From a virus: a DNA stretch of 41,808 bases. The stretch lies in the IMG/VR virus record IMGVR_UViG_3300027583_000001; one strand, 5' to 3'. Each line of letters begins with the position of its first letter. Within the stretch, counting starts at the first letter, position 1. Below the pieces are notes generated by a model. That model worked only from the letters and a program-made list of their open reading frames with translations. It made no database searches and was not told the DNA's origin. Positions 1 through 26,136 of this stretch are shown piece by piece. Both the position numbers and the translations under genes were made by a program.

Positions 1-99
1 TGCGGGTTAGAGCCCTGGCCGGTCTGTAAGCCAACGCCTGTTTCCATATCGAGATACAGCAAGGATATGCGAATGCGGTTGAAGTTCGAGAGGATGTGC
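1..99. repeat. Terminal direct repeat copy 1, identical to 41710-41808 (circular-assembly overlap or physical terminal redundancy)
   Basis: Read base by base: tgcgggttagagccctggcc...gagaggatgtgc occurs at both window ends, 99 of 99 identical. Confidence 0.97.
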
Positions 100-1217
100 C
101 GGGTAATCAGTTCCCGAATGATCGTGACCCCGTTGTCGGTGTACTGAGTCGGGGACATGGTGTAAATCTGATTCGTGGCATAGTCCGATAGCAGAGTGGA
201 CCCGCCGTAATAGGTCGAGAGCAGCGCCGTATGCCTTACCGGAGTCACTGACGTACCTGTCTGCACCTCGCTCCACAGCCGGGTCGAACAGTCATAGAGA
301 AACGAACGGTTAGCCGTGGGAAAGGTCAATTGATAGAACTTGTGCGTGTCTTGCTCATAAGCCAATGCAGTCGCATCAGCGACGGTCGTGAACGTGGCCC
401 AAATCGCCTCCATGTCGGCATCGGAGATGATGTTGGCGTTATAGCCCACGATCTGAACGCACTGCACCGCTCCCGTCCGAGTCACTGCAAGGTGAATCAA
501 GGTCTGATCCACGTGCGCGCGGGAGTAAATAGCTGCTAGGCCGTACTCATTCGCAGCCGAGATCAGCGGCACGAAAGGCTCCGGTGAAAGGCCCTGATTC
601 GTCCAAAACTCCGTGTGCTGTTGAGAAAACACCACCAGAATGCCTAACAGGTTATCCACCGCCAAAACCGTGTCCGAATAGATCGAGGCTGACGCAAAGG
701 CTAAAGCGCTCCACGTGGAACCATCATTGTTGTTCGATACCCAAAAGACCTGCGTACCCGGCTGTTCGGCCACAAAGAAGCCTGACACGAAGGTACAGGT
801 CTGCGCATTGATCGCAGGGAAGGCCGCAATCGTGGTGAGTGTGTTGGTGGCAATCGTCCACAAATACCCCGTATTACCGTCCGTAATCACGATCTGAGTA
901 GGGCTTGCGGCTAAGGAACACAGCCCCGAAAAGGTGTTGAGCGTCCCCGAGGCGATAGTATTTCCGGTTGATCCTAAGCTTAGGAACTGGTTATACGCCA
1001 CCCCATAGAGCGTCGTTTGTGAGCCTAACAAGGCCCGCAAAGGCAGATTTGACGATCCCACCGTGAACTTAGCGACAAGCCCCGGTGTTCCGTAAATGCT
1101 GACCTTGGTCTTGTCTTGGTCCGGTCGGTTCTCGAAATAGCAGTTTAAGCGCCGTTGAGAGGTAACAACGAGGCTTTTCTGTCGAGTGCTACCCCCAAAA
1201 AGGCTGACGATCCTCAT
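1..1217 (-). CDS. P22 gp10-like tail hub / packaged-DNA stabilization protein, N-terminal ~405 codons (continues across the junction into 41487-41709; 479 aa in total)
   Basis: Absent from the ORF track because it has no stop on this side. ATG at 1217 overlaps the stop of 1214..2260 (ATGA). I hand-translated every codon from 1217 to 1 with no stop: MRIVSLFGGSTRQKSLVVTSQRRLNCYFENRPDQDKTKVSIYGTPG...ITRHILSNFNRIRISLLYLDMETG. It is in frame with ORF 41487..41771 through the 99-bp overlap. The size matches P22 gp10 (472 aa). Confidence 0.8.
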   Translation of the reverse strand, partial: MRIVSLFGGSTRQKSLVVTSQRRLNCYFENRPDQDKTKVSIYGTPGLVAKFTVGSSNLPLRALLGSQTTLYGVAYNQFLSLGSTGNTIASGTLNTFSGLCSLAASPTQIVITDGNTGYLWTIATNTLTTIAAFPAINAQTCTFVSGFFVAEQPGTQVFWVSNNNDGSTWSALAFASASIYSDTVLAVDNLLGILVVFSQQHTEFWTNQGLSPEPFVPLISAANEYGLAAIYSRAHVDQTLIHLAVTRTGAVQCVQIVGYNANIISDADMEAIWATFTTVADATALAYEQDTHKFYQLTFPTANRSFLYDCSTRLWSEVQTGTSVTPVRHTALLSTYYGGSTLLSDYATNQIYTMSPTQYTDNGVTIIRELITRHILSNFNRIRISLLYLDMETGVGLQTGQGSNP

Positions 1218-2260
1218 GGGTCATAGGGACTTCCAGCGTTAGGCTGGAAGTAGAAAGTCGTGGTTTCGCTGTCAGGTTCCCGTGCCATCGCCACAGACTC
1301 GAGATAGTTCTGCTGCATGTCCTCCGTCCATACCGCATCGAACATGCCGCAAATCTCTCTGGAACCGCCCCAACAGAGCGCCCGATACCACTGTTGCGGA
1401 TATTCCGGGTTATCTCCCGGATTGTTCAAGTCCATCACGGGACGCAAGAACACCATGTGCAGGCTCTTGGTCACATCCTGAGCGCCTCCACAGTCGATGT
1501 AGTAAGACCCATTGCCACTGGTGGGAGTGGCCGTTAAATTCGTTGCCGTGCCGATCTGACTCTCGTAGTAATACGCCGTAGGGTCTGCCGTGTTTGCGAC
1601 CATCGTCTTGGTCGGCAGCGCCTCATAATCCTCAAGGGTGACTGGGTTTTGCTGGACATCGTTGTTGTAAATGTCCCGCAGAACTGAAGTCACGATGCCT
1701 AAAGGCCGCTGCTGCTTGACCGTGTAGTTCCACACGTAGGCGTTCGCCCCCACCGGCCCCGTCAGCGCATTCGTGAGGGTCACGGTAGACCCTGTAGGAG
1801 CTCCGTTCACCGTGGTCCAGAAGATATCCGTATTGCCCGCGGGGCTTCCATACACCACCCCGATATAGTCCCCGTTGTTGATGTTGGTGATGGAGGACAC
1901 GATGAGCGAGGTTGCCCCGGTAATCGCACCCGCGGTGGTGGTCGTTTGGTTGTGGGTCTGTCCGTCACTGCCTCCCGTGACTCCGCCGGCCCACGCATCC
2001 CCCGTAGGCCCCAGCCGATACTTAAACTGCGCGGCGCCTAAAAAGAGCCGGCCCCGCTGGCGAGTCCACATCTTCAATCCCGGCGCAAAGTCCTGCTTGC
2101 CCATCCACTGCTTCACCAGCATGTTGAGCTTACGCAAGCAGTCGGTGTATTCCTGGGCTGTTGGCACTTCCGCCTCACCGATCGCACCGACATTGAGCAT
2201 CATCTCTCGCACGATGTCGGAGGCGTTGACGGTGAAATTAAACGTGCCAGAGGTCGTCAT
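1214..2260 (-). CDS. Head-to-tail adaptor, P22 gp4-like N-terminus with a large T/G-rich insertion
   Basis: 348 aa. N-terminal DIVREMMLNVGAIGEAEVPTAQEYTDCLRKLNMLVKQW resembles the gp4 N-terminal helices as I recall them. It lies immediately upstream of the gp10-like gene with ATGA coupling, as in P22. Confidence 0.6.
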   Translation of the reverse strand: MTTSGTFNFTVNASDIVREMMLNVGAIGEAEVPTAQEYTDCLRKLNMLVKQWMGKQDFAPGLKMWTRQRGRLFLGAAQFKYRLGPTGDAWAGGVTGGSDGQTHNQTTTTAGAITGATSLIVSSITNINNGDYIGVVYGSPAGNTDIFWTTVNGAPTGSTVTLTNALTGPVGANAYVWNYTVKQQRPLGIVTSVLRDIYNNDVQQNPVTLEDYEALPTKTMVANTADPTAYYYESQIGTATNLTATPTSGNGSYYIDCGGAQDVTKSLHMVFLRPVMDLNNPGDNPEYPQQWYRALCWGGSREICGMFDAVWTEDMQQNYLESVAMAREPDSETTTFYFQPNAGSPYDP

Positions 2261-3306
2261 GCGGTCATCCGCTCATCCAATTGAGCTTTCAGCACGTGCC
2301 AAATAACCCTGTACGCCTGATCCGGGGTGATATCCGCCTGACACTGTGCCACGCCTGACTCCGCTTTCTTGCAATGCTCCCACTGATAGTGGAGCTGGTG
2401 ACAGGCCGGCGCCTCGTTATTTCCCCTGCCCGGACAGACGGTATTCTCCGACCACAGCGGGTGGGTATTCACCCAATCCCGCGTCAAGTTCTCGTGGCTC
2501 GAATGCGAGAGAAACACGACTTTAGGATAGGACAATTGAGCCGCAGCGTTCATGAGACCCGTCTCAGGCCCGATCGCCATGTCAGCTTGACCCATGAACG
2601 CGAGTGATTCGCGAATCGACCACTTGCCACTGCGCCTATGCACGCGCGCTTCTTTCTCCCAGCCTTGCTCGAGGATCTGAGCCGCCTCACCGCCTAAAAA
2701 CGCGATATGCACCTGCGGGAAGTCGAGCATGATGGACGCTACCGCTGCATCCAGATAAGGCCATGTCTTGTGCACTGAGGAACCCGCGAGCGCCCACGCA
2801 ATGACGAATTCACCCATCTTGGCCCGCTCTTTCTTCGCCCAACTGCGCTCGGCCTCGGTTGCATAAAAATGCATCTTCGGTGCATATTTAACGCCGGCTA
2901 TCTCGTGCTGCACCTCGAGGTAATTGCGATCGAGCATCGAATGTCGCAAGGCAGGAGGCCAGAAGTGCATCGTCCTCCCAGGAAGCGCTAGGAACGATCC
3001 CTCGACCGACTCCGATAGATTCACCCACTTATCGTACTTCGCCTTGTGGTAAGCCCAAAACTCGCCCAGAAGGCCATTAGGAACTTGATCCTTGTCTTGG
3101 ATGTAAAAAGCATCGATGTTCGGGTCAAATTTGACTATGTCATCGCCGGGAGGGGAGGTGTATAGCGTGACGTGATAGCCCTCTGCCTTGAGAGCGGCGA
3201 ACACCGATGAAGCTTGGATAAGATCGCCGAAAGCACCGTAGCGGCAGACTCCTACGGTTTTTACTGGCTTTGGATCTTTAAAGCTAAATTTTCTGACGTG
3301 CTTCAT
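2257..3306 (-). CDS. Glycosyltransferase family 9 (ADP-heptose-dependent heptosyltransferase-like) with a C-terminal four-Cys cluster
   Basis: 349 aa. GT9 hallmarks: RYGAFGDLIQASSVFAALKAEG near the N-terminus, GSSVHKTWPY, and SLAFMGQADMAIGPETGLMNAAAQLSYPKVVFLSHS. C-terminal CPGRGNNEAPAC-x9-C-x9-C. Confidence 0.8.
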   Translation of the reverse strand: MKHVRKFSFKDPKPVKTVGVCRYGAFGDLIQASSVFAALKAEGYHVTLYTSPPGDDIVKFDPNIDAFYIQDKDQVPNGLLGEFWAYHKAKYDKWVNLSESVEGSFLALPGRTMHFWPPALRHSMLDRNYLEVQHEIAGVKYAPKMHFYATEAERSWAKKERAKMGEFVIAWALAGSSVHKTWPYLDAAVASIMLDFPQVHIAFLGGEAAQILEQGWEKEARVHRRSGKWSIRESLAFMGQADMAIGPETGLMNAAAQLSYPKVVFLSHSSHENLTRDWVNTHPLWSENTVCPGRGNNEAPACHQLHYQWEHCKKAESGVAQCQADITPDQAYRVIWHVLKAQLDERMTA

Positions 3307-3838
3307 GGAAAGCCTTGAGTGCTGCGCTTTGTTTCGCCTTTGTTTCCTCGGTGTGCTTCCGCCCTAACCACACTTTAGACTCCCTGTTTCTTTGGGCAAG
3401 CCAAGGTCTTTTTGATCCCTTTATTGAAGCTATGAGTTTTTTCTTATTTTCATCGGACATCGGGTGTCCAGGTTTTCCCGTGTTCGACCTGTTGCGGGCC
3501 GCAAGATCGGGTCTCTTCCTGCCCCTATTTCCTCGCCATCCAACAGTGCCTTCGCCACCTTCTGTATGATTGAGAAGCTTGACGCCTTCCATTCTCAAAA
3601 GACCGATGATCTCGATCTCATCTAAGTTGAATCTAGCTTGCTCGCACACCGAAGTTATAGAGATAACAAAACCTTCTTGCTGCTCTCTAAACATCCACTT
3701 GTGAACGGCAGTTTGCCTTCTCTTGGCGTAGTTACGGTGTTGGCACAATCGGGTTTTAAGTAACTGAGTAGTTTGTCCGATATAGCGCGGCTGATTGTTT
3801 CTAGACGAACTCAGCGAATAAATAGTGCAGCATTTCAC
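3284..3838 (-). CDS. GIY-YIG homing endonuclease with two NUMOD3-like DNA-binding repeats
   Basis: 184 aa. TIYSLSSSRNNQPRYIGQT...RLCQHRN (GIY-YIG), LLNHTEGGEG, then GHPMSDENKKKLIASIKG and GRKHTEETKAKQSAALK. Hand-counted 60-nt samples give about 40-48 percent GC against about 57 percent in the capsid region. Confidence 0.85.
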   Translation of the reverse strand: MKCCTIYSLSSSRNNQPRYIGQTTQLLKTRLCQHRNYAKRRQTAVHKWMFREQQEGFVISITSVCEQARFNLDEIEIIGLLRMEGVKLLNHTEGGEGTVGWRGNRGRKRPDLAARNRSNTGKPGHPMSDENKKKLIASIKGSKRPWLAQRNRESKVWLGRKHTEETKAKQSAALKAFHEARQKI

Positions 3839-4371
3839 GAAAGCACCTTAAACACGGCATAGTGTGAATATTCTTTGTCTTGGTTCCGTTTTTGGTAATC
3901 GACCAGATCCCACCCTCTTGGAACCGTCTCCATCCACTCGACTATTTTATCGTAGGTGATGTCTACTTTGTGGTCTGGATTGGCCCCTGGTTGACCTACT
4001 TTTGGGTACTCATCGGCATCGGGAACGTACAAAACCAAATAGCCATTAGGCTTAACTACACGGCACCATTCGGTCAGTACGCCGGGAATCTTGGACTCAT
4101 CGAAGTGTTCCAAAAGGTGCGAAGAGAACACAAAATCCATGGACTGCGAGGCGAAAACGTCCAACTTCTCGCAGGTTGGAACCCACACATCCGGCTTGAT
4201 CTGTGCTCCGAATAGCTGCGCATCAACACAGTTATCGACCCCAATCCAGTGTTGATAGGTCTTGGCGACTCCAGAGCCTAAGTCTAGGCCTCTACCCTTC
4301 GTGTATTGGACGATCTCCCACCGAATCTTATACGCTTCATTCCCTTGCGGATCGGCGATGTTCCAGGTCAT
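3835..4371 (-). CDS. Class I SAM-dependent methyltransferase
   Basis: 178 aa. Motif I GRGLDLGSG, then GVDN, SSHLLEHF and VKPNGYLVLYVPD. Low GC like the neighbouring GIY-YIG gene. Confidence 0.8.
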   Translation of the reverse strand: MTWNIADPQGNEAYKIRWEIVQYTKGRGLDLGSGVAKTYQHWIGVDNCVDAQLFGAQIKPDVWVPTCEKLDVFASQSMDFVFSSHLLEHFDESKIPGVLTEWCRVVKPNGYLVLYVPDADEYPKVGQPGANPDHKVDITYDKIVEWMETVPRGWDLVDYQKRNQDKEYSHYAVFKVLS

Positions 4372-4372
4372 T

Positions 4373-4891
4373 TCAGAACCTTATGTAGGTCTTTTCGGCG
4401 ACTATCGGTATCAATCGGTGAGTCTGACAGAATTCTTTTACCGCTGCATCTGCTCCCGCTAAACACCCCACATCGTCACACCAAATAACTCCCCCTTCGA
4501 CCATGCGGGGCTGAAAATATGCGAGGGCTTCTCGATAGGACCGATATTGATCAACGTCCAAGTGAACAAAGGCCACCGGCCCCATCTCAACCGCACTATC
4601 GGGAAAGATGCCAGCCACCACCGTGGCATAGGGAATGGCGGTTTTTACTTCCTCGACTGAGGTGTCCGCAAAATCACCTACCCGGTGACTGTCTAACTCA
4701 CCGCGGTAGGGTATCCCAGTAAAGGTGTCGTAGAGGTAGCAGGGCCTCCCTTGCGCTTGAGCTACTTGGGCAAGATGCCAAGCCGTGCCTCCGTGGTAAA
4801 CGCCTACTTCAACGAAAGCGCCGGCAGGTGTTGATTGAGCGAGCTTGGCTAACGCTCGAGCGCAGTCCTCACTGACTAGGCTGTGCAGCAT
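4373..4891 (-). CDS. TylF/MycF-type (macrocin O-methyltransferase-like) SAM methyltransferase
   Basis: 172 aa. FVEVGVYHGGTAWHL, YLYDTFTGIP, FVHLDVDQYRSYREAL and GGVIWCDD match the TylF-family pattern (E.G...G, D.F.G.P, D.D.Y.S, GG...DDY). Confidence 0.75.
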   Translation of the reverse strand: MLHSLVSEDCARALAKLAQSTPAGAFVEVGVYHGGTAWHLAQVAQAQGRPCYLYDTFTGIPYRGELDSHRVGDFADTSVEEVKTAIPYATVVAGIFPDSAVEMGPVAFVHLDVDQYRSYREALAYFQPRMVEGGVIWCDDVGCLAGADAAVKEFCQTHRLIPIVAEKTYIRF

Positions 4892-5087
4892 TCTTGCGCT
4901 TGGCCCACGCTGCTTTCATGGCCTCTGATCGGGTCTTGTCTTTGAATCCCTCCAAAGATAAATCAGGTTCGCCGACAGGCAACCCGTCAAACCCGTAGTC
5001 AATCCCGTCCTGCACAAAAGCAATATCGGGATGGTTGTACACGATGCCGTGATGGCGGGTTTTATCTAGTCCCATAGCACGTTCCAT
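4869..5087 (-). CDS. Hypothetical protein (72 aa; start may be the internal Met at 5075)
   Basis: Same-strand ORF bridging the 360-aa gene and the methyltransferase, overlapping both neighbours. Confidence 0.5.
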   Translation of the reverse strand: MERAMGLDKTRHHGIVYNHPDIAFVQDGIDYGFDGLPVGEPDLSLEGFKDKTRSEAMKAAWAKRKNAAQPSQ

Positions 5088-6148
5088 GAGCCGGCAGCGG
5101 TACCGGAAGTCACCACGACCAGCGAAGTGTTGAATTTAATACCGAGGCCGCCAGGCCCAGGCGACAGCGCTGATAATAGCGTGGTGGACGTGGACACCGC
5201 CATCAGCGTATTTGTCCCATCCAATACGCCAATTCCCGCTCCTGTTCCAAGTGCCCACAGATAGGAGCTGAAATAAATGCCGGGGCCATTGGCAACGGTG
5301 GTTGTCCCGCTCGTCGTAATGGCGGTGTAATTGGCCGCTTGAGCCATGTTGAGGGCTTTGGAATTGACCGAGGCTTTGCGAAACGGGTACACCCCATCAC
5401 TCAAGGAAATAGCACCGGCTGACGCATCGGCCATGGTCACCGCATTTTGTGTCACCGTCGCGGCAGCTCCCGCATTCGAGACGACAAGTACACCCGTGCT
5501 TAAGGTGTTGTTGACCGGCCCCGAGGCTCCTGTCGGATAACTCGCCACCACGTTGTATTCGTTGTCGATCGACCAAAAACAAATGTCGCCCCGAAAGCGA
5601 ATCCAGTACTTATGCACTCCCGCATCCGTAGGCTGAACCTTGCCCAAGTTGGCAACGACCAAGCGCACCCCGGCGCCCCAGGTCGCCGCAAACAGCACCC
5701 CATTGATCACATCGAACACCGCCCCATCGGTCACAGGTGCAGCATACGTGGGCGTTCCTGGGATGTTCATCAAACCCCAGGCACAGTAATTGTTGATCGG
5801 AATGGAGGCCGGGAAGTTGATCGCGTGATAGTTGATCAAATACCCTGGCTGGGAGGGCTGAAACTGCGGCTTACTGATGAGCGCCGAATAGCTGTTAGCC
5901 GTCGTACCACCATTTAAGGTGGTATTGCCGTTCGTTCCTGGAGAGCTCGGCGCTATTCCGGTTCCGCCGTTACTCGTCGTCCACAGATTGACCGTATCGA
6001 GAGTCGCCGCGCCAAAAAGATCAATGAAAATCTGACGCGCTAAGCTCTCAGTTAAGAATCCACCTGACGGAGATACGGACCCCAATATCCCGCTTGTCGG
6101 GTCGATCGGGATGACGCCTATCGGAGTCGGTGTTGCGGGGGCTGGCAT
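5066..6148 (-). CDS. Hypothetical virion-module protein, G/T/S/N-rich (360 aa)
   Basis: Long ORF in the late operon between the coat and adaptor genes. No motif recognised. Confidence 0.6.
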   Translation of the reverse strand: MPAPATPTPIGVIPIDPTSGILGSVSPSGGFLTESLARQIFIDLFGAATLDTVNLWTTSNGGTGIAPSSPGTNGNTTLNGGTTANSYSALISKPQFQPSQPGYLINYHAINFPASIPINNYCAWGLMNIPGTPTYAAPVTDGAVFDVINGVLFAATWGAGVRLVVANLGKVQPTDAGVHKYWIRFRGDICFWSIDNEYNVVASYPTGASGPVNNTLSTGVLVVSNAGAAATVTQNAVTMADASAGAISLSDGVYPFRKASVNSKALNMAQAANYTAITTSGTTTVANGPGIYFSSYLWALGTGAGIGVLDGTNTLMAVSTSTTLLSALSPGPGGLGIKFNTSLVVVTSGTAAGSWNVLWD

Positions 6149-6151
6149 AAC

Positions 6152-6583
6152 TCATACTCGATCTAGGTAGTTGTTGCGCTCCACAAACCCTTCAACGCCA
6201 TCGACATCGACCACATCATAGAACGCATCGTTATGCTCGCGCGTGTACATGTCGTCGGTAGAGAGCATCTTCTTGCGATCGAACCCCGTTCTCAACGACC
6301 GCTCCGTGATGTCGTTCGTAATCTGCGTGCCATTGCCGTTCATGGGCATCTGACGAATGTCGGCCATCTCCTGATCTTCAATGTCCATGCCGGGAGGGAG
6401 GCCATTGAAGAATGCCGCATTGTTCATCGGCCTGCTATCGGAATCTCCACCCGGAACGCCTTCACGCCCAGGCGTGCCTTTCTTAGCCCGCGCCTCGACA
6501 TCCGTGATCCAGCCCTCGCCCGGGTCGTCATTCGACTGCTGGGGGTATCGGATCTCGAATTTCTCTTGTACTACCTTGCTCAC
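6152..6583 (-). CDS. Hypothetical protein with LPPGMDIEDQE motif (paralog B, 143 aa)
   Basis: Contains DDPGEGW and FFNGLPPGMDIEDQEMADIR. ATGA-coupled to 6580..6972, which carries the same motifs. Confidence 0.65.
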   Translation of the reverse strand: MSKVVQEKFEIRYPQQSNDDPGEGWITDVEARAKKGTPGREGVPGGDSDSRPMNNAAFFNGLPPGMDIEDQEMADIRQMPMNGNGTQITNDITERSLRTGFDRKKMLSTDDMYTREHNDAFYDVVDVDGVEGFVERNNYLDRV

Positions 6584-6972
6584 CAGCCGTCTCCGGGATA
6601 GCCCAACCCTCCGCTGTAGGTCTTCATAGTCTCGACGCGAATGTCAGAGTTTTCTTGATCTTCGATGTCCATCCCAGGCGGCAAAGAGTTGTACATGGCA
6701 TTCACGCCAAACTCCAACCCCTTCTTCGTGAGGTAGCCATTATCCTTAATGCCCGTCTTATCGACGCTTTCTCCACCCGAGCTTGGCAACACATCCACAT
6801 CCGCCAAGGCTGAGCCTTTCATCTCGTGGCGCTTTTGCGCGCGAGCGTTCGCGGACTTGATCACGTCGTCTTTCGAGGGAGTCGAACCACCCACCATTGC
6901 CGTGGACAGCCCATCACGAGCGACCTGCGGACTTTCGTAAGCGCCCTTGTGACCTTGAGTTCTCTTAGCCAT
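6580..6972 (-). CDS. Hypothetical protein with LPPGMDIEDQE motif (paralog A, 130 aa)
   Basis: Contains MYNSLPPGMDIEDQENSDIR and ends in GYPGDGW. Confidence 0.65.
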   Translation of the reverse strand: MAKRTQGHKGAYESPQVARDGLSTAMVGGSTPSKDDVIKSANARAQKRHEMKGSALADVDVLPSSGGESVDKTGIKDNGYLTKKGLEFGVNAMYNSLPPGMDIEDQENSDIRVETMKTYSGGLGYPGDGW

Positions 6973-6982
6973 GTCTGCTCCT

Positions 6983-7609
6983 TTACGCCAACATTGAACT
7001 TAAGGGCGCGATACCCCACTGAACGATGGCCTGGTAGACCGCGGTTGCATCCGTTCCATTGACGAATTGCAGCGTGTCTCCGGGGTTCATGTACAACCCA
7101 CCTTGGCCCGCTTGGTTGCCACCCGCATACCCTGATGTATACGTCGCGGTTCCCCACACCTGAGAGGTGTTCGTTCCCCCTAGAGTGTTGAGCGCATAGG
7201 GGCCGTTCATGCCACCTGCTACGCCGCCTCCCATGCCGCCGACGTTCACATTGGCACCCGTGGTTGACGTACCCCCGATCACCGCCCAGGGCGTCGCTGC
7301 GGCGCCTAGAGTCGTGGTTGCGAGCGCTACTGAGTTGGTGGCCGTGTTGGTCACGAAGAGCGCATAACAACCCGTCGCCGGGGATGTCGCCGTACCGTTC
7401 ACCGTGTAGGTGGAAGTGCCGGCAGTCGTGGTGAAGAACGTAGCCCCGTAGATAATGAGCGAGGTCCACGCCGTGAACTTGCCTGACGTGGCACCCGAGC
7501 CTGCCGTGTTCGCGGTGAGTAGTTCGCTCTGCCGAGAGAGGTACGCCGGATTGTCATACGCAATGTTGCGGGTGACAACGTTCGTATTGCCTTGATTTTG
7601 AGTAGCCAT
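6983..7609 (-). CDS. T/G/A-rich protein immediately downstream of the coat gene (candidate capsid decoration or head fibre, 208 aa)
   Basis: Position 2 nt after the coat stop. Composition is dominated by T, G, A, N and S. No motif recognised. Confidence 0.55.
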   Translation of the reverse strand: MATQNQGNTNVVTRNIAYDNPAYLSRQSELLTANTAGSGATSGKFTAWTSLIIYGATFFTTTAGTSTYTVNGTATSPATGCYALFVTNTATNSVALATTTLGAAATPWAVIGGTSTTGANVNVGGMGGGVAGGMNGPYALNTLGGTNTSQVWGTATYTSGYAGGNQAGQGGLYMNPGDTLQFVNGTDATAVYQAIVQWGIAPLSSMLA

Positions 7610-7610
7610 G

Positions 7611-8582
7611 TTATGCCACCGAGTCCCATTTGACGATTCGTACGTTGATCGGATTCGTATGCACGATGCCGAAGCCTCCCAAGTAGTACCAGGCGATACC
7701 TTTGGACCGCCCGTAGTCGGTCGGAATCTTGCCGCGCATCTCCTCCGGTACCGCGATAGCCTCTGCTACCGTGTCATTGCCGAAGAAGAAGATCCAGTCC
7801 GACACACCGTTAACCCATGGCGTAGTCGTCACACCATCCGTGCCTAAGCCCTTCGGAATGTTGGTCTGCTCGATGTACCGCGTGTTCTCGTACCGGCCAA
7901 TCTCACCGTTCATGATGAGGTTGAAGCCCGTGTCAGAATACTGGTGGATCGTCTCGAGGTTGTTTTTGAAGGTACGAAGCGTAGTCGGCCAGGCGATCGC
8001 GTAGTAATCGTCCGCGATGTAAGCCGGGATGTTGCGCTCCTTCATCGCGTCCACGATCGACTTGGCGTGACCGTTGTTGTAGGCGACGTTGTTCGTTCCC
8101 GTAACCGTGCCGTTCGTGTACAGCGTTACCGCGGAGGTATTCGTGCCACCCGTGGGGATAACTCTTAGAAGCGTCTGGTTGAACTGGCCCCAGGCCAAAC
8201 GATCCACCGACTTAACGGTATCGTTCTTGAGCGCCTTCTTGATAATGTCCTCAACCGGGAACTTCGAGAGGTTATCGAGCTTGCCGGAGTAGGGGACCGA
8301 GTTACCTGCCTCGGTAATCGTCAGGGTGCCCTGAGTGATCGTGAAGTTGGTTTCCGGCATGGTGTTGGTTTCAATCAACACACCGCCTGCCGTTGCTACG
8401 TCTGAAACCACGTCCCAGGTGAACGTGTCACCCTTCTTTTTGCCCTGCTGTGAGATGTCGTGAACGTCGGCGAACTGGCGAAACTTCACCAGTGGCTGAA
8501 CGTTCATACGCAATACGTTAGAAAGCTGTCGGCTGTAGAGATATCCGCCGAGTGAACTGACCGCCCAAACTTGCCCAGCCAT
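7611..8582 (-). CDS. Major capsid protein (HK97 fold; resembles the N4 gp56-type family)
   Basis: 323 aa, directly after the scaffold gene. Starts MAGQVWAVSSLGGYLYS..LVKFRQFADV and ends in GIAWYYLGGFGIVHTNPINVRIVKWDS, typical of this coat family as I recall it. Confidence 0.85.
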   Translation of the reverse strand: MAGQVWAVSSLGGYLYSRQLSNVLRMNVQPLVKFRQFADVHDISQQGKKKGDTFTWDVVSDVATAGGVLIETNTMPETNFTITQGTLTITEAGNSVPYSGKLDNLSKFPVEDIIKKALKNDTVKSVDRLAWGQFNQTLLRVIPTGGTNTSAVTLYTNGTVTGTNNVAYNNGHAKSIVDAMKERNIPAYIADDYYAIAWPTTLRTFKNNLETIHQYSDTGFNLIMNGEIGRYENTRYIEQTNIPKGLGTDGVTTTPWVNGVSDWIFFFGNDTVAEAIAVPEEMRGKIPTDYGRSKGIAWYYLGGFGIVHTNPINVRIVKWDSVA

Positions 8583-8630: not shown

Positions 8631-9584
8631 TTAATTCCGGCGAGAATGAACGTGCGGGTTTAAGCCCCTGGCTTTTGCCATCTGCTCGATGACATTGCCC
8701 ACGTCTTCCTCGCCCTCCGGTTCCTCTTCCGTTTGCTGCCGTGAGGCCGCAGTCGGAACATTCACCAGAGTTCGCTTCCGTTCGAGCTTGGTTTGAGTCT
8801 GAGCCTTAGTCAGTCCAGGGAAGGCCGTGCGCAGCTCTTTGTCGATCGAGGTGTAAGCCTCGCTGAGCCCCATCGTCGGATTTTCAGCTTTCAGCTCTTG
8901 TAGCCGAACGTTGAACAGACGCTTGGTGTACGGATTCTCTAGAAGGTCTTTGCTCTTGTCCTCTAACGTCGCCAGTTCGGTCCTGAACGATAAGCGCTGA
9001 TCAATCTGTCTCACAACGTCCGGAGTCACCTCGGATGGCCGTGCATCAATGACAGATGCCAACTTCTCAATCGCCTCTTCATCCCCCAAAACAGCCGCGC
9101 GGAGGATCGAACGCACATCGACTTTCTCGACGTTGCTTGGCTCGTCTTTCGATAGAGCTAGCCGTGAAGCATTTCTAACAGACTCAGCAGCGGTTTGCAA
9201 GTACTCGTCCGCTGCTTCCACTTTCGCAGACGATGTGCGAATTTCCTTGAGCGTTTGCCACTTTTCGCGACCGTTGACGATCTGACGATAGTACGTCTCG
9301 CCGTTCACCACTTTGGTGTCGGTGTCGGCTTCTTCTTTCGTCTCTTCCGTGGCTCCCTCGGTCTGCAAGAGTTTCGCCGCTTCTTCATCCTCTGCACGGG
9401 CGCGCGCTTCCTTCTCTTCGGAGTCGTCTTTGATCTCCATGCCTTCGAGGTCGTCTTTGCGGTTCTCATCAGCACCATCGGCGATGGCTTCCATGCGCGC
9501 GAGGCGATCGTTGTTCTTGCTGGTGTTGGCCTCTTTAGCCTTCGCCACAGCGTCGTCGTGGGCTTTCTTTTCTTCGGGAGTCAT
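8631..9584 (-). CDS. Scaffolding protein
   Basis: 317 aa. Strongly acidic, Lys/Glu/Ala-rich and helical-looking. Lies between portal and coat as in P22 (gp8, 303 aa). Confidence 0.7.
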   Translation of the reverse strand: MTPEEKKAHDDAVAKAKEANTSKNNDRLARMEAIADGADENRKDDLEGMEIKDDSEEKEARARAEDEEAAKLLQTEGATEETKEEADTDTKVVNGETYYRQIVNGREKWQTLKEIRTSSAKVEAADEYLQTAAESVRNASRLALSKDEPSNVEKVDVRSILRAAVLGDEEAIEKLASVIDARPSEVTPDVVRQIDQRLSFRTELATLEDKSKDLLENPYTKRLFNVRLQELKAENPTMGLSEAYTSIDKELRTAFPGLTKAQTQTKLERKRTLVNVPTAASRQQTEEEPEGEEDVGNVIEQMAKARGLNPHVHSRRN

Positions 9585-10723: not shown

Positions 10724-12889
10724 TTAAGCTGCATTGGGTTTCGCCTTCGCTAACTGCTTCTGTTGCTTAAAGCCCTCATCTCGATCCTCGACTGCGGCCT
10801 CTCGCGAAGTATCGCGGTCCTCGACCTGATCCTCCCGCTCACCCTCAGCCACTTCCTTGCCGGCCACGTGCGCAAACAAGGCGAGTCGCGCCTTACTGTG
10901 ATGGGTCTTGTCCGCAATCGCGAGCTTCGTGAGGTTCGTCTCGTGCGTGGTCAATACCTTCGCCTTGTTGGCATCTTCCTTGTTCTTTTTCTCAAGCTGC
11001 AACTGCTGAATCATCTTGGTCATTGCTTGAATCTGCTGCTGCGCCTTCGCCAAGGCTGGATCTGAGCCATCCATCACAAACCTCGTGCCGTCCTGATAGC
11101 CTGAGAGTGCCATCAGTTCCTTGAACACCTCTTTCAAGTCTACGCCAGGGGGAGGCTGCTTTGCCACAATGTGCGAGTAGGTGTTTAAGGCAAAGGCGAA
11201 CTTCTGGACCTTCGCCGCGGGGTCGGTTGCACCCATGCCCACGTTCACTGTAACCGTCAGTTCCTTGTCCAGAATCGCGTCCGTCATCTGATTGACGCCG
11301 TACTTCTGATAGACCTTCGCCTTTTCGCCGGCTAGGGCAAGGATGACCATGTCAGTTTCGTAGTGCTGCTCGAGCATGACGAGCTGCCGAAGTACAGGTT
11401 GGACGAAAGTCTCCACAAAGGTTTTGAGCATGTACTCGGTAAGCAGATTGCTAGGTCCTTGGAGCATCCGCATGGTGTTTGTGGATTCTCGCCCACTGCG
11501 TTGGGCGGTGACTTGCATCGGGTTAAAATTACCGGCCAGGTCGCTAAAGTCTCCATCTATGCGGTCCTGTTCCAAGTAGGCGGAATTGGTAACGTCAGGC
11601 CAGTTGATTTCCTTGATATCGTTCTCAGGGTCATCTGCCAGGGTGATTCCACCAGGCGTGTTACGTACCAGGCTGGAGAGATCCACATTCTTTCCACGCT
11701 TGGCGATCCAGCGCTTATTGAGGACGAATTTGACGTTGTCTGACCGTTGATTCTGGACATCGTTGGCTTCCTCCTGGAGTGCTTTCGTGACCGTGGGAAT
11801 CGATGAGGGAATCGGCTTATGCGTCTCCAACATGGTAGTGCCCATCACATAGGGGCGCTTACCATGCCAAACGGTATCCTTTAAGGGCTCGGGATCGGTG
11901 AGGAGCCGTTCAGAAGCAATCGTGTAAAACTCCCAATCTTCTCCGTTGTACCGGTGGATATGACGATGTACCCACACGATATCGTAATCTGAGGTGTCTC
12001 GTTTCTGCTGAGTAGGGTCTTGACTAACTCCTCCTCTCGCTTGTCGAGTGGAATCATCAGAACTGTCGCTTCGGGCGAATACTTGGCTAGCACTGTACTT
12101 CCTCCACCGCTGACCCTTGGGGTTCGGATGCTCCATTCTATCCTTCACATCACACCAGTACATCGGCATCAAATGAATGATGTAGGGGCTGGAATTGATC
12201 GGGTCTGACCAATGCGCGCTAGGGTCAATCCGCAGGTTCTCGATGGGGATCAAGTCTAAGCACGGCTTGTCCTCTAAGCTCTCGGTCTGCCCGTCCTTAT
12301 CGTGCCGCTCGATAAACCGCCAGTACACATGGGCACAGGCTAAACCCTGCACCTGGGCGTCCTGAAAGCTCCCCAGTAGGAACATGAACCACGGGATGGT
12401 CTTGGTCAGCCGGTACTGCAACAGCTCTTTCGTTACTTCCGCCGAGACGAGTTCTTCCTTGACGCTCTGATTACTGGCAGCAACGTCAACCACGTCGAGG
12501 TTTGAAAAGAAGGCAGCAGCAGCAGCGGCCTCATTCTTGCGAATAACAGCACGGGTCTTCGGTCGATAAAGGTTTGACCGCTTACGGAATAACTCGCCGT
12601 TGTACTTGGAATCCGAGGAGTGCTGCGAATTGAAGGCGCGGATTGAATCATCCCAGGGCTTCCTATAGTTGCTGTCGATATAGGTCGTCGAGAACCGAAA
12701 CGAATCCTTCGCACGCTTGAGCCAGAAGCTATCCGAGGGCTTGGCCTGCTTCTCCTCACCCGAGGGGCTATCGCCTGTCTCAATGCCAGGGGATTCGTTC
12801 TCGGCCCCTAATTCGTCGCCTTCGTACTCTCCCTGCTCGGGATCGTTGATGCTAGGGGGCTGCGGCCTCCATGGCGTTGATTGACTCAT
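10724..12889 (-). CDS. Portal protein (P22 gp1-like size, with a long C-terminal helical extension)
   Basis: 721 aa (P22 portal is 725 aa). Lies between the terminase and scaffold genes. The C-terminal ~100 residues are K/E/Q/A-rich and coiled-coil-like (QQIQAMTKMIQQLQLEKKNKEDANKAK...). Confidence 0.85.
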   Translation of the reverse strand: MSQSTPWRPQPPSINDPEQGEYEGDELGAENESPGIETGDSPSGEEKQAKPSDSFWLKRAKDSFRFSTTYIDSNYRKPWDDSIRAFNSQHSSDSKYNGELFRKRSNLYRPKTRAVIRKNEAAAAAAFFSNLDVVDVAASNQSVKEELVSAEVTKELLQYRLTKTIPWFMFLLGSFQDAQVQGLACAHVYWRFIERHDKDGQTESLEDKPCLDLIPIENLRIDPSAHWSDPINSSPYIIHLMPMYWCDVKDRMEHPNPKGQRWRKYSASQVFARSDSSDDSTRQARGGVSQDPTQQKRDTSDYDIVWVHRHIHRYNGEDWEFYTIASERLLTDPEPLKDTVWHGKRPYVMGTTMLETHKPIPSSIPTVTKALQEEANDVQNQRSDNVKFVLNKRWIAKRGKNVDLSSLVRNTPGGITLADDPENDIKEINWPDVTNSAYLEQDRIDGDFSDLAGNFNPMQVTAQRSGRESTNTMRMLQGPSNLLTEYMLKTFVETFVQPVLRQLVMLEQHYETDMVILALAGEKAKVYQKYGVNQMTDAILDKELTVTVNVGMGATDPAAKVQKFAFALNTYSHIVAKQPPPGVDLKEVFKELMALSGYQDGTRFVMDGSDPALAKAQQQIQAMTKMIQQLQLEKKNKEDANKAKVLTTHETNLTKLAIADKTHHSKARLALFAHVAGKEVAEGEREDQVEDRDTSREAAVEDRDEGFKQQKQLAKAKPNAA

Positions 12890-22312: not shown

Positions 22313-22921
22313 ATGAAGGCTCTATTTCTGGCTCTGCTTTTGACCGGTACCGCATCCGCTTTGAACCTACCGATACCGCCCGGCTACCCAATTCTGCTCG
22401 GGAGGTCATGCGGCAGCGTCTTCGTTGCCTCATACATTGAGGGTTTCGACACGGCCGGCAACGTCCACGGAGAGTTGAGGGCATCCACTCGATGTCCCAC
22501 GAGCGGGCGCGGGGGTGGCTCGATTACTTACACGTCATACCACGCCATCACCTGGGACTTCTTTGGCGGCTATGTGTTGAGCGCCTATGACGGCGGAGCG
22601 TTGAATCCCGCTGAAGTTGCCGTCGATGCCTACGGTAACGTGGCACAAGTCGTGAACAACGTACCGACGCTAACGCTCAATTACCTGCCGCCCACCGCAA
22701 AACACATCGCGGCCATCGTTCCGGTGACAGCCGGAAAAGCGCAGGCAATCGCGACGGCGCAATTAACGGCCTTGGGATTCGTGCCGAGCATTACCTACGT
22801 CTATACCGGGACGGCGCCCGCAGGGTCGGTGCTGTACACAACTCCCGCGGCGGGACTCATGGAGCCGGTAGGCGCCGCGATACAAGTCGTCGTCTCTCTA
22901 GGCGGCGGAAACAACGACTAG
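22313..22921 (+). CDS. Secreted protein with a C-terminal PASTA domain
   Basis: 202 aa. Sec signal MKALFLALLLTGTASA-LN. C-terminal VPVTAGKAQAIATAQLTALGFVPSITYVYTGTAPAGSVLYTTPAAGLMEPVGAAIQVVVSLG fits the PASTA consensus (vP.v.G....A...L...Gf.......G.V....P.aG......g..v.l.vS.G). Confidence 0.7.
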   Translation: MKALFLALLLTGTASALNLPIPPGYPILLGRSCGSVFVASYIEGFDTAGNVHGELRASTRCPTSGRGGGSITYTSYHAITWDFFGGYVLSAYDGGALNPAEVAVDAYGNVAQVVNNVPTLTLNYLPPTAKHIAAIVPVTAGKAQAIATAQLTALGFVPSITYVYTGTAPAGSVLYTTPAAGLMEPVGAAIQVVVSLGGGNND

Positions 22922-25919: not shown

Positions 25920-26136
25920 TTTTGCTGCGAAGAGAATCAGCGATGCGGACGAATGGCGCATCATTCGAGTGGCATACGCAGAGACGTATCCGGTGCGATT
26001 GCTGCTCAACCACTACGATGAACTTGCAGCCCTGCTGCGTCGAGCCGCCAAGGCATTCCCGTACGACGACGGATGGCTGCATGAGGCGCAGTCCCTTTTC
26101 GATGGCTCACAGGCTGATGCCGGAGTAAAACCATGA
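25912..26136 (+). CDS. Hypothetical early protein (74 aa, GTG start)
   Basis: GGAGG lies about 8 nt upstream of the GTG at 25912. Confidence 0.55.
   Translation: MTDFAAKRISDADEWRIIRVAYAETYPVRLLLNHYDELAALLRRAAKAFPYDDGWLHEAQSLFDGSQADAGVKP

What the first reader, a model, noticed from the sequence alone, without database searches (positions are those of the whole stretch)
2257..7609. 5.3-kb cargo island between coat and adaptor: GT9 with a four-Cys tail, a TylF-type O-methyltransferase, a class I methyltransferase and S/T/G-rich virion proteins - candidate virion-protein glycosylation system
In P22 the coat gene is followed directly by gene 4. Here nine genes are inserted between them in the same late operon. 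Three are sugar-chemistry enzymes. The first is a GT9 (heptosyltransferase-family) enzyme. GT9 normally acts on LPS cores, but the TibC/AAH class heptosylates Ser residues of beta-helical proteins. This copy ends in C-x10-C-x9-C-x9-C, a metal-finger-like cluster I do not associate with WaaC/WaaF, and TibC-type enzymes are reported to hold a Cys-coordinated iron. The second is a TylF-family O-methyltransferase, a family that methylates sugar hydroxyls. The third is another class I SAM methyltransferase. The remaining genes include a 208-aa T/G/S-rich protein right after the coat, a 360-aa G/T/S/N-rich protein and two motif-sharing small proteins. Late co-expression with these plausible acceptors suggests the phage decorates its own capsid or fibres with a (methyl)heptose glycan. 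Virion glycosylation is known for some mycobacteriophages, but a GT9/heptose route would be new as far as I know. An alternative is modification of host LPS.
Basis: partly seen in the sequence, partly recalled or inferred. Interest (0 to 1): 0.85.

Follow-up and report, generated by a model that had tools for sequence, protein, structure and literature searches.

The report
Split methyltransferase–glycosyltransferase in phage head operon
The head-assembly operon of this uncultured phage carries a methyltransferase plus family-9 glycosyltransferase, normally one protein but here cut in two by a selfish endonuclease gene, and it probably puts methylated sugars on the virus particle, although that function is inferred rather than shown.

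Summary
The described genes are real. Nine tightly packed minus-strand ORFs lie between the coat gene and an adaptor-position gene.

Three corrections:
- The region is not inserted cargo. Every relative chosen by coat similarity that has enough downstream DNA carries the methyltransferase (MT) and GT9 just before the adaptor-position gene.
- The class I MT (3835-4371) and the GT9 (2257-3306) are halves of one gene. Most of more than 3,200 homologues are about 523-aa MT–GT9 fusions.
- The TylF-type sugar O-methyltransferase is accessory.

The GT9 is far below the LPS heptosyltransferase cut-offs. It aligns full-length with WaaF. It lacks TibC's β-barrel and thumb. Its four family-wide cysteines (ancestrally CxxC…C…C) align with TibC's iron-finger cysteines.

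In unrelated siphophage-type contigs the fusion lies directly after the major capsid gene, or between terminase and portal. No GenBank phage has this GT9.

Best reading, with confidence about 0.45: late glycosylation of virion proteins with a methylated sugar. Acceptor, donor and metal are unproven. Interest 0.65.

The parts
7611..8582 (-). Major capsid (coat) protein, 323 aa. It is the upstream boundary of the region and a candidate acceptor.
   Evidence: 53% identical to the annotated putative major capsid protein of Vibrio phage 219E41.1. 83-95% identical in more than 600 IMG/VR contigs.
6983..7609 (-). 208-aa low-charge T/G/S-rich all-β protein directly after the coat gene. Possibly a head decoration protein (inferred).
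   Evidence: S+T 24%, G 15%, charged 3%. 340 homologues, all unnamed and from this phage group. 29-86% identity in relatives, and replaced by another gene in some. AF2 pLDDT 66, all-β. No significant fold match.
6580..6972 (-). 130-aa conserved head-module protein of unknown role. It shares the LPPGMDIEDQE motif with the next gene.
   Evidence: Present in nearly all coat relatives. Motif 16/21 identical with the 143-aa protein. No Pfam or PHROG hit.
6152..6583 (-). 143-aa conserved head-module protein. It resembles the 130-aa protein only in the shared motif.
   Evidence: No family hit.
5066..6148 (-). 360-aa G/T/S/N/A-rich protein. It has a conserved N-terminal module of about 90-130 aa and a lineage-specific C-terminal extension, which is a fibre-like architecture (inferred).
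   Evidence: Only the N-terminal 20-29% is conserved. In other phages this part is a stand-alone 111-145 aa protein, or the N-terminus of 700-930 aa low-charge proteins. No Pfam, PHROG or PDB sequence hit.
4869..5087 (-). 72-aa ORF of unknown function.
   Evidence: Weak homologues in 3 relatives, at 30-38% identity. No family hit.
4373..4891 (-). TylF/NovP/MycF-type SAM-dependent sugar O-methyltransferase, 172 aa. It is an accessory gene.
   Evidence: Pfam TylF 2.5e-15. PDB O-methyltransferases 5i10/4cdz at 8e-6, also MycF and NovP, with the LDxDxY motif kept. Present in only a minority of relatives.
3835..4371 (-). Class I SAM methyltransferase (Methyltransf_11), 178 aa. It is the N-terminal half of the split MT-GT9 gene.
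   Evidence: Pfam 2.8e-9. It corresponds to residues 1-~180 of the ~523-aa fusions.
3284..3838 (-). Free-standing GIY-YIG + NUMOD3 homing endonuclease gene inserted in the inter-domain linker of MT-GT9.
   Evidence: Pfam GIY-YIG 23.9 bits and NUMOD3 30.1 bits. PHROG 314 homing endonuclease 5e-12. GC 0.467 against 0.547. No intron model matches. A 62%-identical endonuclease gene sits at the same site in L019, and a 120-aa remnant in L018. Start and stop overlaps are shown.
2257..3306 (-). GT9-family GT-B glycosyltransferase, 349 aa. It is the C-terminal half of the split MT-GT9 gene.
   Evidence: Pfam GT9 23.8 bits. AF2 and Foldseek best matches are 3tov, WaaF, WaaC and TibC. hhalign to WaaF gives 96% over 305 columns. 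G27-D28 and K180 are invariant.
2341..2436 (-). Four-cysteine finger (Cys291, 302, 312, 322) inserted before the C-terminal helix of the GT9.
   Evidence: The four Cys are nearly invariant in 114 diverse family members. The family consensus is C-x-P-C-H-x-L-H-x5-6-C-x9-11-C, and this clade has an 8-aa insert in the first knuckle. All four align with the TibC iron-finger Cys. WaaF has none there.
1214..2260 (-). 348-aa protein in the head-to-tail adaptor (P22 gp4) position. It is the downstream boundary of the region.
   Evidence: It is followed by a PF11134 (P22 gp10-like) gene that wraps the window ends. It has only a weak 42-column N-terminal match to P22 gp4, E 0.008. PHROG 12985, unknown function.

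Best explanation
The region is the conserved distal part of the head-morphogenesis operon of a complete ~41.8-kb podophage genome. The genome has an SU10-type portal and a P22-like gene order.

**Anatomy**
- The enzymatic core is a bifunctional SAM methyltransferase-GT9 glycosyltransferase with a four-cysteine metal finger.
- In most relatives this is one ~523-aa polypeptide. Here a free-standing GIY-YIG homing endonuclease gene has invaded the inter-domain linker.
- As a result the MT (3835-4371) and the GT9 (2257-3306) are translated separately. Both halves keep their conserved motifs and probably still work together.
- An accessory TylF-type sugar O-methyltransferase lies just upstream.

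**Proposed mechanism**
1. Late in infection the GT9 domain transfers a sugar from a host nucleotide-sugar onto hydroxyl groups of virion proteins. ADP-heptose is the default donor for GT9.
2. The acceptor would be the coat protein or head-associated low-charge S/T-rich proteins.
3. The fused MT O-methylates that sugar.
4. Where present, the TylF-type enzyme adds a second methyl group.

**Shown:** the domain identities, the split, conservation across relatives, and the head-module location.

**Inferred:** cooperation of the two halves, late timing, the donor sugar, the bound metal and the acceptor.
For: **Fusion and split**
- The GT9 has more than 3,200 homologues, and most of the 120 listed are ~523 aa with Methyltransf_11 at the N-terminus. 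There are 756 clusters at 50% identity.
- Stand-alone GT9 relatives are also interrupted at the same linker, by a GIY-YIG gene or its remnant.
- No intron model matches.

**Sugar chemistry**
- The fold is GT9.
- The catalytic G-D motif and the K-x-W-P motif are conserved.
- In another lineage the GT9 is fused to a different methyltransferase family, FkbM.
- Extra MT genes lie next to it in L013 and L019.
- The TylF-type enzyme matches the sugar O-methyltransferases MycF and NovP.

**Link to the head**
- Among 80 loci chosen by coat similarity alone, every one with enough downstream DNA has MT-GT9 just before the adaptor-position gene.
- This holds even where the spacer after the 143-aa gene shrinks to 170 bp.
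- In unrelated siphophage-type contigs the gene lies immediately after the protease-capsid fusion gene (L011, L012, L016).
- In L013 and L014 it lies between terminase and portal.

**Protein-acceptor hint**
- The Cys4 finger aligns with TibC's iron finger. In TibC that finger contributes to dimerisation and substrate recognition (PMC4358343).

**Precedents**
- The chlorovirus A064R GT-GT-MT fusion plus the stand-alone MT A061L build a methylated capsid glycan (PMC9614988).
- Mycobacteriophage capsid and tail-tube subunits are glycosylated (as cited in PMC12619734).

**Operon structure**
- Gene overlaps are tight and no convincing internal promoter or terminator was found.
Against: - There is no direct evidence for any acceptor.
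- The acceptor-side N-lobe is strongly conserved between phages with unrelated capsid proteins. This would fit a common non-virion acceptor equally well.
- The catalytic core resembles WaaF, an LPS enzyme, more than TibC.
- The S/T-rich proteins are variable or absent in relatives.
- The D-S/T-G...H donor motif is changed to E-T-G...N, so heptose is not assured.
- The hhalign probabilities for TibC are low, at 7-21%.
- No cultured relative exists, so there are no virion proteomics.
Confidence: 0.45

Rival explanations
1. The enzyme modifies a host envelope glycoconjugate, such as the LPS inner core, another lipid-linked glycan or a surface polysaccharide, during infection. The purpose could be to block re-adsorption of progeny to debris or to exclude other phages. 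The MT and the TylF-type enzyme would methylate the added sugar.
For: - GT9 enzymes are classically LPS-core enzymes.
- The family profile aligns full-length with WaaF at 96% probability and E 3e-9. Foldseek's top hits are GT9/WaaF/WaaC.
- The N-lobe is conserved across phages with unrelated virion proteins.
- The MAG labels of related contigs are mostly Gram-negative taxa.
- The phage also carries polysaccharide-active genes, a pectate-lyase-like spike and a GH71.
Against: - Scores are 13-20 bits against the curated cut-offs of 135-185 for heptosyltransferases I-III.
- The gene is translationally embedded in the late head operon rather than in a lysogeny or moron position.
- The same head-module position recurs in unrelated backbones.
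- LPS made late in infection would have little time to reach the surface (my own reasoning).
- WaaF lacks the Cys4 finger.
Confidence: 0.2
2. The enzyme is a capsid-packaged or otherwise non-virion-modifying late protein. It could be an injected effector acting on host or phage targets at the next infection, or it could make a small methylated glycoside.
For: - The head-module position, including between terminase and portal, is also where genes for packaged internal proteins can lie (my own knowledge of P1 Dar and T4 internal proteins).
- The conserved N-lobe suggests a common acceptor.
Against: - No capsid-targeting signal or proteomic evidence exists.
- Nothing in the sequence specifically supports packaging.
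- The MT families involved are typical of sugar and small-molecule O-methylation, which fits glycan tailoring.
Confidence: 0.1
3. The enzyme glycosylates phage DNA as a hypermodification before packaging. The MT and the nearby Asp/Asn-hydroxylase-like dioxygenase would prepare the base.
For: - Phage GT-B enzymes can put heptose or Kdo on 5hmC (bioRxiv 10.1101/2023.12.21.572611).
- The window also has a 2OG-oxygenase-family gene (PF05118) and a GNAT in the same operon.
- A position next to packaging genes occurs in some lineages.
Against: - Methyltransf_11 and FkbM are not DNA C5-methyltransferase families.
- No TET/JBP-type oxygenase or hydroxymethylase was found among the ORFs scanned.
- T4 β-glucosyltransferase is not among the top 50 structural matches, which are led by GT9 enzymes.
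- The hydroxylase-GNAT pair is absent from several relatives and from the siphophage-type lineages that still carry MT-GT9.
Confidence: 0.05

Closest known systems
Bacterial autotransporter heptosyltransferases (TibC/AAH, BAHT family)
   Same: - Both have a GT9-type GT-B catalytic domain.
- Both have a four-cysteine finger inserted in the C-lobe before the last helix. All four Cys align, and the ancestral CxxC...C...C spacing is similar.
- TibC is a GT9 enzyme that glycosylates a protein (PMC4358343).
   Different: - This family has no PF21129 N-terminal β-barrel. Relatives carry a methyltransferase domain there instead.
- It has no β-hairpin thumb, and its N-lobe is a normal Rossmann lobe.
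- The profile match covers the C-lobe only, at 7-21% probability.
- There is no adjacent autotransporter gene.
- The metal and the oligomeric state are unknown.
LPS-core heptosyltransferases WaaF/WaaC (GT9)
   Same: - There is a full-length profile alignment with WaaF (96%, 305 columns).
- The G-D catalytic motif and the K-x-W-P motif are shared.
- The fold is the same.
   Different: - Scores are far below the equivalog cut-offs.
- There is no match to WaaC.
- E-T-G...N replaces D-S/T-G...H.
- This family has a Cys4 finger and an MT fusion.
- It lies in a phage head operon rather than a waa cluster.
Chlorovirus PBCV-1 A064R (GT-GT-methyltransferase fusion) plus stand-alone methyltransferase A061L
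   Same: - Both are virus-encoded fusions of a glycosyltransferase and a class I SAM methyltransferase.
- Both have a separate second sugar O-methyltransferase.
- In PBCV-1 these enzymes build the methylated end of the major capsid protein glycan (PMC9614988).
   Different: - The GT folds and families are unrelated (GT-A type against GT9).
- PBCV-1 is a eukaryotic giant virus.
- The function is demonstrated there and only inferred here.
Mycobacteriophage virion glycosylation
   Same: - Phage-encoded glycosyltransferases decorate capsid and tail-tube subunits (Freeman et al. 2023, as cited in PMC12619734).
   Different: - The hosts differ, and from memory so does the GT family. I could not read that paper.
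- No fused methyltransferase is known to me there.
- No sequence relation was found: the GT9 domain is absent from all 50,697 GenBank phage records.
Genes-in-pieces created by free-standing homing endonucleases (e.g. the split nrdA of Aeromonas phage Aeh1, from my own knowledge)
   Same: - A free-standing GIY-YIG-family endonuclease gene sits inside a coding region and splits it into two translated halves at a domain boundary.
- The same site is occupied in other relatives.
   Different: - The target gene is different.
- Function of the split product has not been tested here.

Membership tests
CAZy GT9 / Pfam PF01075 | Pfam score at or above the gathering threshold | tested here: met
   23.8 bits against a cut-off of 22, which is marginal. 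L008 scores 23.8 and L015 scores 20.7.
CAZy GT9 / Pfam PF01075 | GT-B fold of two Rossmann lobes, closest to GT9 structures | tested here: met
   AF2 pLDDT 83.8, pTM 0.85. Foldseek: 3tov 3e-15, WaaF 7e-13, WaaC 6e-10, TibC 5e-8.
CAZy GT9 / Pfam PF01075 | N-terminal G-D catalytic-base motif and K-x-W-P phosphate motif | tested here: met
   G27, D28 and K180 are invariant in 114 members. They align with WaaF VGD and AKRWP.
CAZy GT9 / Pfam PF01075 | D-(S/T)-G...H donor-sugar motif and ADP-heptose as donor | tested here: inconclusive
   The family has E248-T249-G250 and Asn253 where WaaF has D-S-G...H. The donor cannot be determined with these tools.
LPS-core heptosyltransferases I/II/III (NCBIfam TIGR02193/02195/02201) | Score above the curated equivalog cut-off | tested here: not met
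   12.9, 20.0 and 17.8 bits against cut-offs of 185, 135 and 170.
LPS-core heptosyltransferases I/II/III | Location in an LPS core (waa) gene cluster | tested here: not met
   The gene always lies in phage head modules.
BAHT (TibC/AAH) | N-terminal β-barrel domain (PF21129) | tested here: not met
   All 120 listed TibC relatives carry PF21129. The window GT9 has no such hit. The model starts with a Rossmann strand at residue 17. Relatives have an MT domain there.
BAHT (TibC/AAH) | β-hairpin thumb inserted in the C-lobe | tested here: not met
   The region aligned to TibC 255-275 is a helix at 207-213 followed by a short strand, with no insertion.
BAHT (TibC/AAH) | Four-Cys iron finger inserted in the C-lobe | tested here: inconclusive
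   The four Cys align with C339/C342/C358/C370 at the same topological place. The overall hhalign probability is only 7-21%. AF2 confidence in the loop is low. The identity of the metal is not testable here.
BAHT (TibC/AAH) | Atypical four-stranded N-lobe | tested here: not met
   The N-lobe aligns over its full length with the WaaF N-lobe. The model has four strands, each followed by a helix. The TibC alignment does not cover the N-lobe.
BAHT (TibC/AAH) | Dodecameric ring; adjacent autotransporter substrate gene | not testable with these tools
   The oligomeric state is unknown. No autotransporter gene is present in the window.
TylF/NovP/MycF sugar O-methyltransferases (PF05711) | Pfam score above the cut-off, similarity to solved sugar O-MTs, and the metal-binding LDxDxY motif | tested here: met
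   56.9 bits against a cut-off of 23. 5i10/4cdz at 8e-6, plus MycF and NovP. HLDVDQY aligns with RLDGDLY. At 172 aa it lacks about 80 N-terminal residues of the solved enzymes.
Free-standing GIY-YIG homing endonuclease | GIY-YIG catalytic domain plus a DNA-binding module | tested here: met
   GIY-YIG 23.9 bits against 22.6, and NUMOD3 30.1 against 20.4. PHROG 314 at 5e-12.
Free-standing GIY-YIG homing endonuclease | Sporadic presence at a site that is uninterrupted in most relatives, and not within an intron | tested here: met
   Absent from 80 coat-selected loci and from the fused homologues. Present at the same site in L019, with a remnant in L018. No Rfam intron match. Low GC. Cleavage activity and target are not testable.

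The most novel reading that the evidence does not exclude
This would be a phage-specific, metagenome-wide family of bifunctional methyltransferase-GT9 enzymes with a TibC-like metal finger that O-glycosylates capsid or other head proteins with a methylated heptose (or other sugar). It would be the first virion glycosylation system in phages of Gram-negative-type hosts. It would also be the first GT9 protein glycosyltransferase outside the autotransporter heptosyltransferases. It occurs in the head modules of several unrelated phage lineages.
Probability: 0.4. Interest if true: 0.8.

Novelty: new variant of a known kind. Interest (0 to 1): 0.65.

Why it matters
- If the enzyme glycosylates virions, self-glycosylation of phage particles would not be a mycobacteriophage curiosity. 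It would be widespread in environmental phages and would use a different enzyme family and methylated sugars.
- That would affect particle stability, adsorption to soil and biofilm matrices, and recognition by hosts and predators.
- The family is large: more than 3,200 clusters at 90% identity and 756 at 50%. It has no cultured representative and no characterised member, so a single biochemical assay would annotate thousands of genes.
- The Cys4 finger shared with TibC gives a testable handle on how GT9 enzymes moved between lipid and protein acceptors.
- The endonuclease-split version is a natural experiment on whether the two domains must be covalently linked.

Tried and rejected
- **Group I intron around the endonuclease gene.** No Rfam match in 2000-8000 even at E ≤ 1, so the gene is treated as free-standing.
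- **Cultured relatives.** Megablast of 12 kb found nothing. tblastn of three divergent family members against 50,697 phage records matched only the MT domains, never the GT9.
- **Sequence-only PDB searches.**
  - The GT9 alone and profile A1 gave no GT hit.
  - Only the more diverse profile A2 reached 3tov and WaaF.
- **Identity of the 208-aa protein.** There is no Pfam, PHROG or PDB sequence hit. The medium-confidence all-β model gave no significant fold match, with a best E of 0.02.
- **The 360-aa protein, the coat and the 348-aa protein against PDB sequences.** Nothing was found.
- **Adaptor assignment.** Only a weak 42-column match to P22 gp4 was found, so the assignment is kept as positional.
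- **Functional coupling of MT-GT9 with the Asp/Asn-hydroxylase-like, GNAT and ATP-grasp genes.** Rejected, because these are missing from several close relatives and from the siphophage-type lineages.
- **The large S/T-rich proteins as obligatory acceptors.** Rejected, because the slot that holds them shrinks to 170 bp in L048 while MT-GT9 stays.
- **Literature.** No paper in the library links GT9 to phage capsids. Freeman et al. 2023 could not be read.

Full report
**What is in the sequence**

All genes in the region lie on the minus strand in one tight array. In order they are:
- portal, 10724-12889 (Pfam SU10_portal)
- a scaffold-position gene, 8631-9584
- coat, 7611-8582
- nine ORFs: 208 aa (6983-7609), 130 aa (6580-6972), 143 aa (6152-6583), 360 aa (5066-6148), 72 aa (4869-5087), 172 aa (4373-4891), 178 aa (3835-4371), 184 aa (3284-3838) and 349 aa (2257-3306)
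- a 348-aa gene, 1214-2260

Neighbouring ORFs range from a 23-nt overlap to a 10-nt gap. A simple scan finds no convincing internal promoter or terminator. This is consistent with one operon but does not prove it.

The gene after the 348-aa ORF runs off the window start and continues at the window end as one reading frame with a duplicated 33-aa stretch. The window is therefore a circularly assembled complete genome of about 41.8 kb. That wrapped gene is the PF11134 (P22 gp10-like) gene seen in relatives.

The 348-aa protein is therefore in the P22 gp4 (adaptor) position. Direct similarity to gp4 is only a weak 42-column N-terminal match.

**Family assignments**

Pfam and PHROGs give the following.
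- 349 aa: Glyco_transf_9, marginal at 23.8 bits against a cut-off of 22.
- 184 aa: GIY-YIG plus NUMOD3, and PHROG "homing endonuclease" at 5e-12.
- 178 aa: Methyltransf_11.
- 172 aa: TylF, at 2.5e-15.
- The other five ORFs have no hit.

The TylF-type protein matches solved sugar O-methyltransferases (5i10/4cdz, MycF, NovP) and keeps the LDxDxY motif.

It did not recognise the homing endonuclease.

**The MT and the GT9 are one gene in pieces**

The GT9 has more than 3,200 homologues at 90% clustering. Most of the 120 best are about 523 aa with Methyltransf_11 at the N-terminus.

Their sequences show the window MT and GT9 to be the two halves. Fused relatives read ...EYSLxFVFQK(V/T)GSGQH...KTCG(I/V)VRYGAFGD. 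The window MT ends ...EYSHYAVFKVLS*, and the GT9 starts MKHVRKFSFKDPKPVKTVGVCRYGAFGD.

At the junction:
- The MT stop overlaps the endonuclease GTG start (GTGA).
- The GT9 ATG lies 23 nt inside the endonuclease 3' end, with AAGG 7 nt upstream.

No Rfam intron model matches, so the endonuclease gene is free-standing. Its GC is 0.467 against 0.547 for the window.

Other stand-alone GT9 relatives are interrupted at the same place. L019 has a GIY-YIG/NUMOD3 gene that is 62% identical to this one. L018 has a 120-aa ORF with a weak GIY-YIG match. This points to a homing endonuclease lineage that targets this linker.

Both halves keep the family's invariant residues. I infer that they still function, probably as a non-covalent pair.

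**Not a cargo island**

I fetched 80 IMG/VR loci by coat similarity alone (83-95% identity, more than 600 available) and mapped the window proteins onto them.
- The order is constant: coat, 208-aa, 130-aa, 143-aa, a variable slot, MT-GT9, then the 348-aa gene.
- Every locus with enough downstream DNA has the fused MT-GT9.
- In the three apparent exceptions the slot is filled to the contig end: with 700-930 aa proteins in L040 and L076, and with a 532-aa protein followed by a divergent MT gene in L095.
- The TylF-type gene is present in only a minority.
- The 208-aa gene is very variable (29-86% identity) and is replaced in one sub-lineage.
- Only the N-terminal quarter of the 360-aa protein is conserved. 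Elsewhere this part is a stand-alone 111-145 aa protein, or the head of much larger low-charge proteins.
- The slot ranges from 170 bp to 4.3 kb.

MT-GT9 is therefore a core gene of this phage group. The S/T-rich proteins are the variable part.

**Other phage backbones**

A scan of species-representative genomes found 13 more loci with GT9 identity down to 34%.
- In L011, L012 and L016 the MT-GT9 gene lies immediately downstream of the capsid gene. These loci have a protease-major-capsid fusion gene and a tape-measure or tail-tube gene. L011 also has a lambda-type portal.
- In L013 and L014 the gene lies between the large terminase and the portal.
- In L014 the N-terminal domain is an FkbM-type methyltransferase rather than Methyltransf_11.
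- L013 and L019 have extra MT genes beside the fusion.

The pairing of a GT9 with a methyltransferase, and placement inside the head or packaging module, therefore recur in unrelated phages.

No GenBank phage has the GT9 domain.

**TibC-like or WaaC/WaaF-like?**

- NCBIfam scores for heptosyltransferases I-III are 13-20 bits against cut-offs of 135-185. It is not an LPS-core equivalog.
- The AF2 model (pLDDT 83.8) matches 3tov, WaaF, WaaC and TibC with similar TM-scores of 0.56-0.61. The fold alone does not discriminate.
- A profile of 114 diverse members (A2) aligns with WaaF over 305 columns covering both lobes, at 96% probability and E 3e-9.
- The same profile gives nothing for WaaC.
- It aligns with TibC over the C-lobe only, at 21% probability and E 1e-3. 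Against a 31-sequence BAHT profile it gives 7% and E 5e-3.
- BAHT enzymes all carry the PF21129 β-barrel, which is absent here. The thumb is also absent.

In both TibC alignments, however, all four cysteines align with TibC Cys339, 342, 358 and 370. These coordinate Fe(III) in TibC and are needed for assembly and activity (PMC4358343).

The family consensus is C-x-P-C-H-x-L-H-x5-6-C-x9-11-C. This is a CxxC knuckle as in TibC, and the window's clade has an 8-residue insert in it. WaaF has no cysteines there.

My reading is a WaaF-like GT9 core carrying a finger that is positionally equivalent to TibC's. Homology of the finger is suggested, not established. The enzyme is not a BAHT member.

**Mechanism**

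Shown: a bifunctional MT-GT9, an accessory sugar O-MT, a head-module location and a metal-finger motif.

Inferred: late in infection the GT9 transfers a sugar onto virion proteins, the fused MT methylates that sugar, and the TylF-type enzyme adds a second methyl group.

The closest functional precedent is chlorovirus PBCV-1. Its GT-GT-MT fusion A064R and the stand-alone MT A061L build the doubly methylated terminal rhamnose of the capsid glycan (PMC9614988). Mycobacteriophage capsid and tail-tube glycosylation is a second precedent (cited in PMC12619734).

Weak extra hints:
- The coat of GT9-bearing phages has a 9-16 residue loop (KGxGTDGVTTTP) that is missing in the GT9-less Vibrio phage coat. 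This rests on a single comparison.
- One variable-slot protein has a weak β-helix hit.

Against this reading:
- The acceptor-side N-lobe is highly conserved across phages with unrelated capsids.
- The core is WaaF-like.
- The donor motif is altered, with E-T-G...N in place of D-S/T-G...H.

I give virion glycosylation 0.45. The rivals are a host envelope glycoconjugate at 0.2, a packaged or other late role at 0.1, and DNA hypermodification at 0.05. The DNA precedent is, but no matching base-modifying enzymes were found.

**Novelty and verdict**

The kind of system, virus-encoded glycosylation of its own particle by fused GT-MT enzymes, is known. This enzyme family, its Cys4 finger, its spread through head modules of uncultured phages, and the endonuclease-split form appear undescribed in the library searched.

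I rate it a new variant of a known kind, with interest 0.65. The direction is plausible and is strengthened by the comparative data. The "cargo island", the TibC-class membership and the named acceptors are not supported.

Noticed in passing
window 26133-27515 (+): A 460-aa protein hits glycoside hydrolase family 71 (the α-1,3-glucanase family) at 7e-29. This is unusual for a phage. It may be a depolymerase for a host exopolysaccharide.
   Followed up: no
window 40188-41227 (-): An Asp/Asn β-hydroxylase-family (PF05118) gene and a GNAT acetyltransferase gene sit as a pair between the gp10-like and gp7-like structural genes. The pair is present in many close relatives but not all. It is absent from the siphophage-type lineages, so it is not coupled to MT-GT9.
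   Followed up: partly
window 34710-36032 (-): An ATP-grasp enzyme (GARS_A/GARS_C-like, 440 aa) is embedded between the ejection-protein-position genes and the tail-fibre/tailspike-like genes. It is conserved in several relatives (L002, L005, L019).
   Followed up: partly
window 1-1213 and 41487-41808 (-): The P22 gp10-like (PF11134) gene wraps around the window ends as one frame with a duplicated 33-aa stretch. The window is a circularly assembled complete genome with an assembly overlap of about 99 nt.
   Followed up: yes
window 7815-7853 (-), coat residues ~244-256: The coat proteins of GT9-bearing phages carry an extra loop (KGLGTDGVTTTPW). This loop is absent from the 53%-identical coat of Vibrio phage 219E41.1, which lacks the GT9. 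It is a possible glycosylation site, but there is only one GT9-less comparison.
   Followed up: partly
window 6152-6972 (-): The 130-aa and 143-aa proteins share a near-identical 21-residue motif (N.LPPGMDIEDQE..DIR) but little else. Both are conserved across the phage group and have no known function.
   Followed up: partly
L014:7852-9624; L013:8865-11023: In lambda-type-portal phages the GT9 lies between the large terminase and the portal. In L014 it is fused to an FkbM-type (Methyltransf_21) methyltransferase instead of Methyltransf_11. This indicates independent MT-GT9 fusions.
   Followed up: partly
L005 (contig CAVVLX010000006.1, 942 kb) and L016 (149-kb contig): Related phage regions lie inside very long contigs. 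One is labelled Thermoplasmata archaeon and one Gammaproteobacteria. This suggests prophages, and so a temperate lifestyle, or a mis-assembly or mis-binning. No integrase was seen among the window ORFs scanned.
   Followed up: no
L040:5260-5442; L076:4636-5202: Small ORFs with an RGLC..HW motif, which looks HNH-endonuclease-like by eye, sit in the variable slot of relatives. This suggests that further selfish endonuclease genes are present in this head operon.
   Followed up: no
window 22313-22921 (+): A 202-aa low-charge protein in the region transcribed in the opposite direction (+ strand) has a C-terminal PASTA domain (3.8e-6).
   Followed up: no
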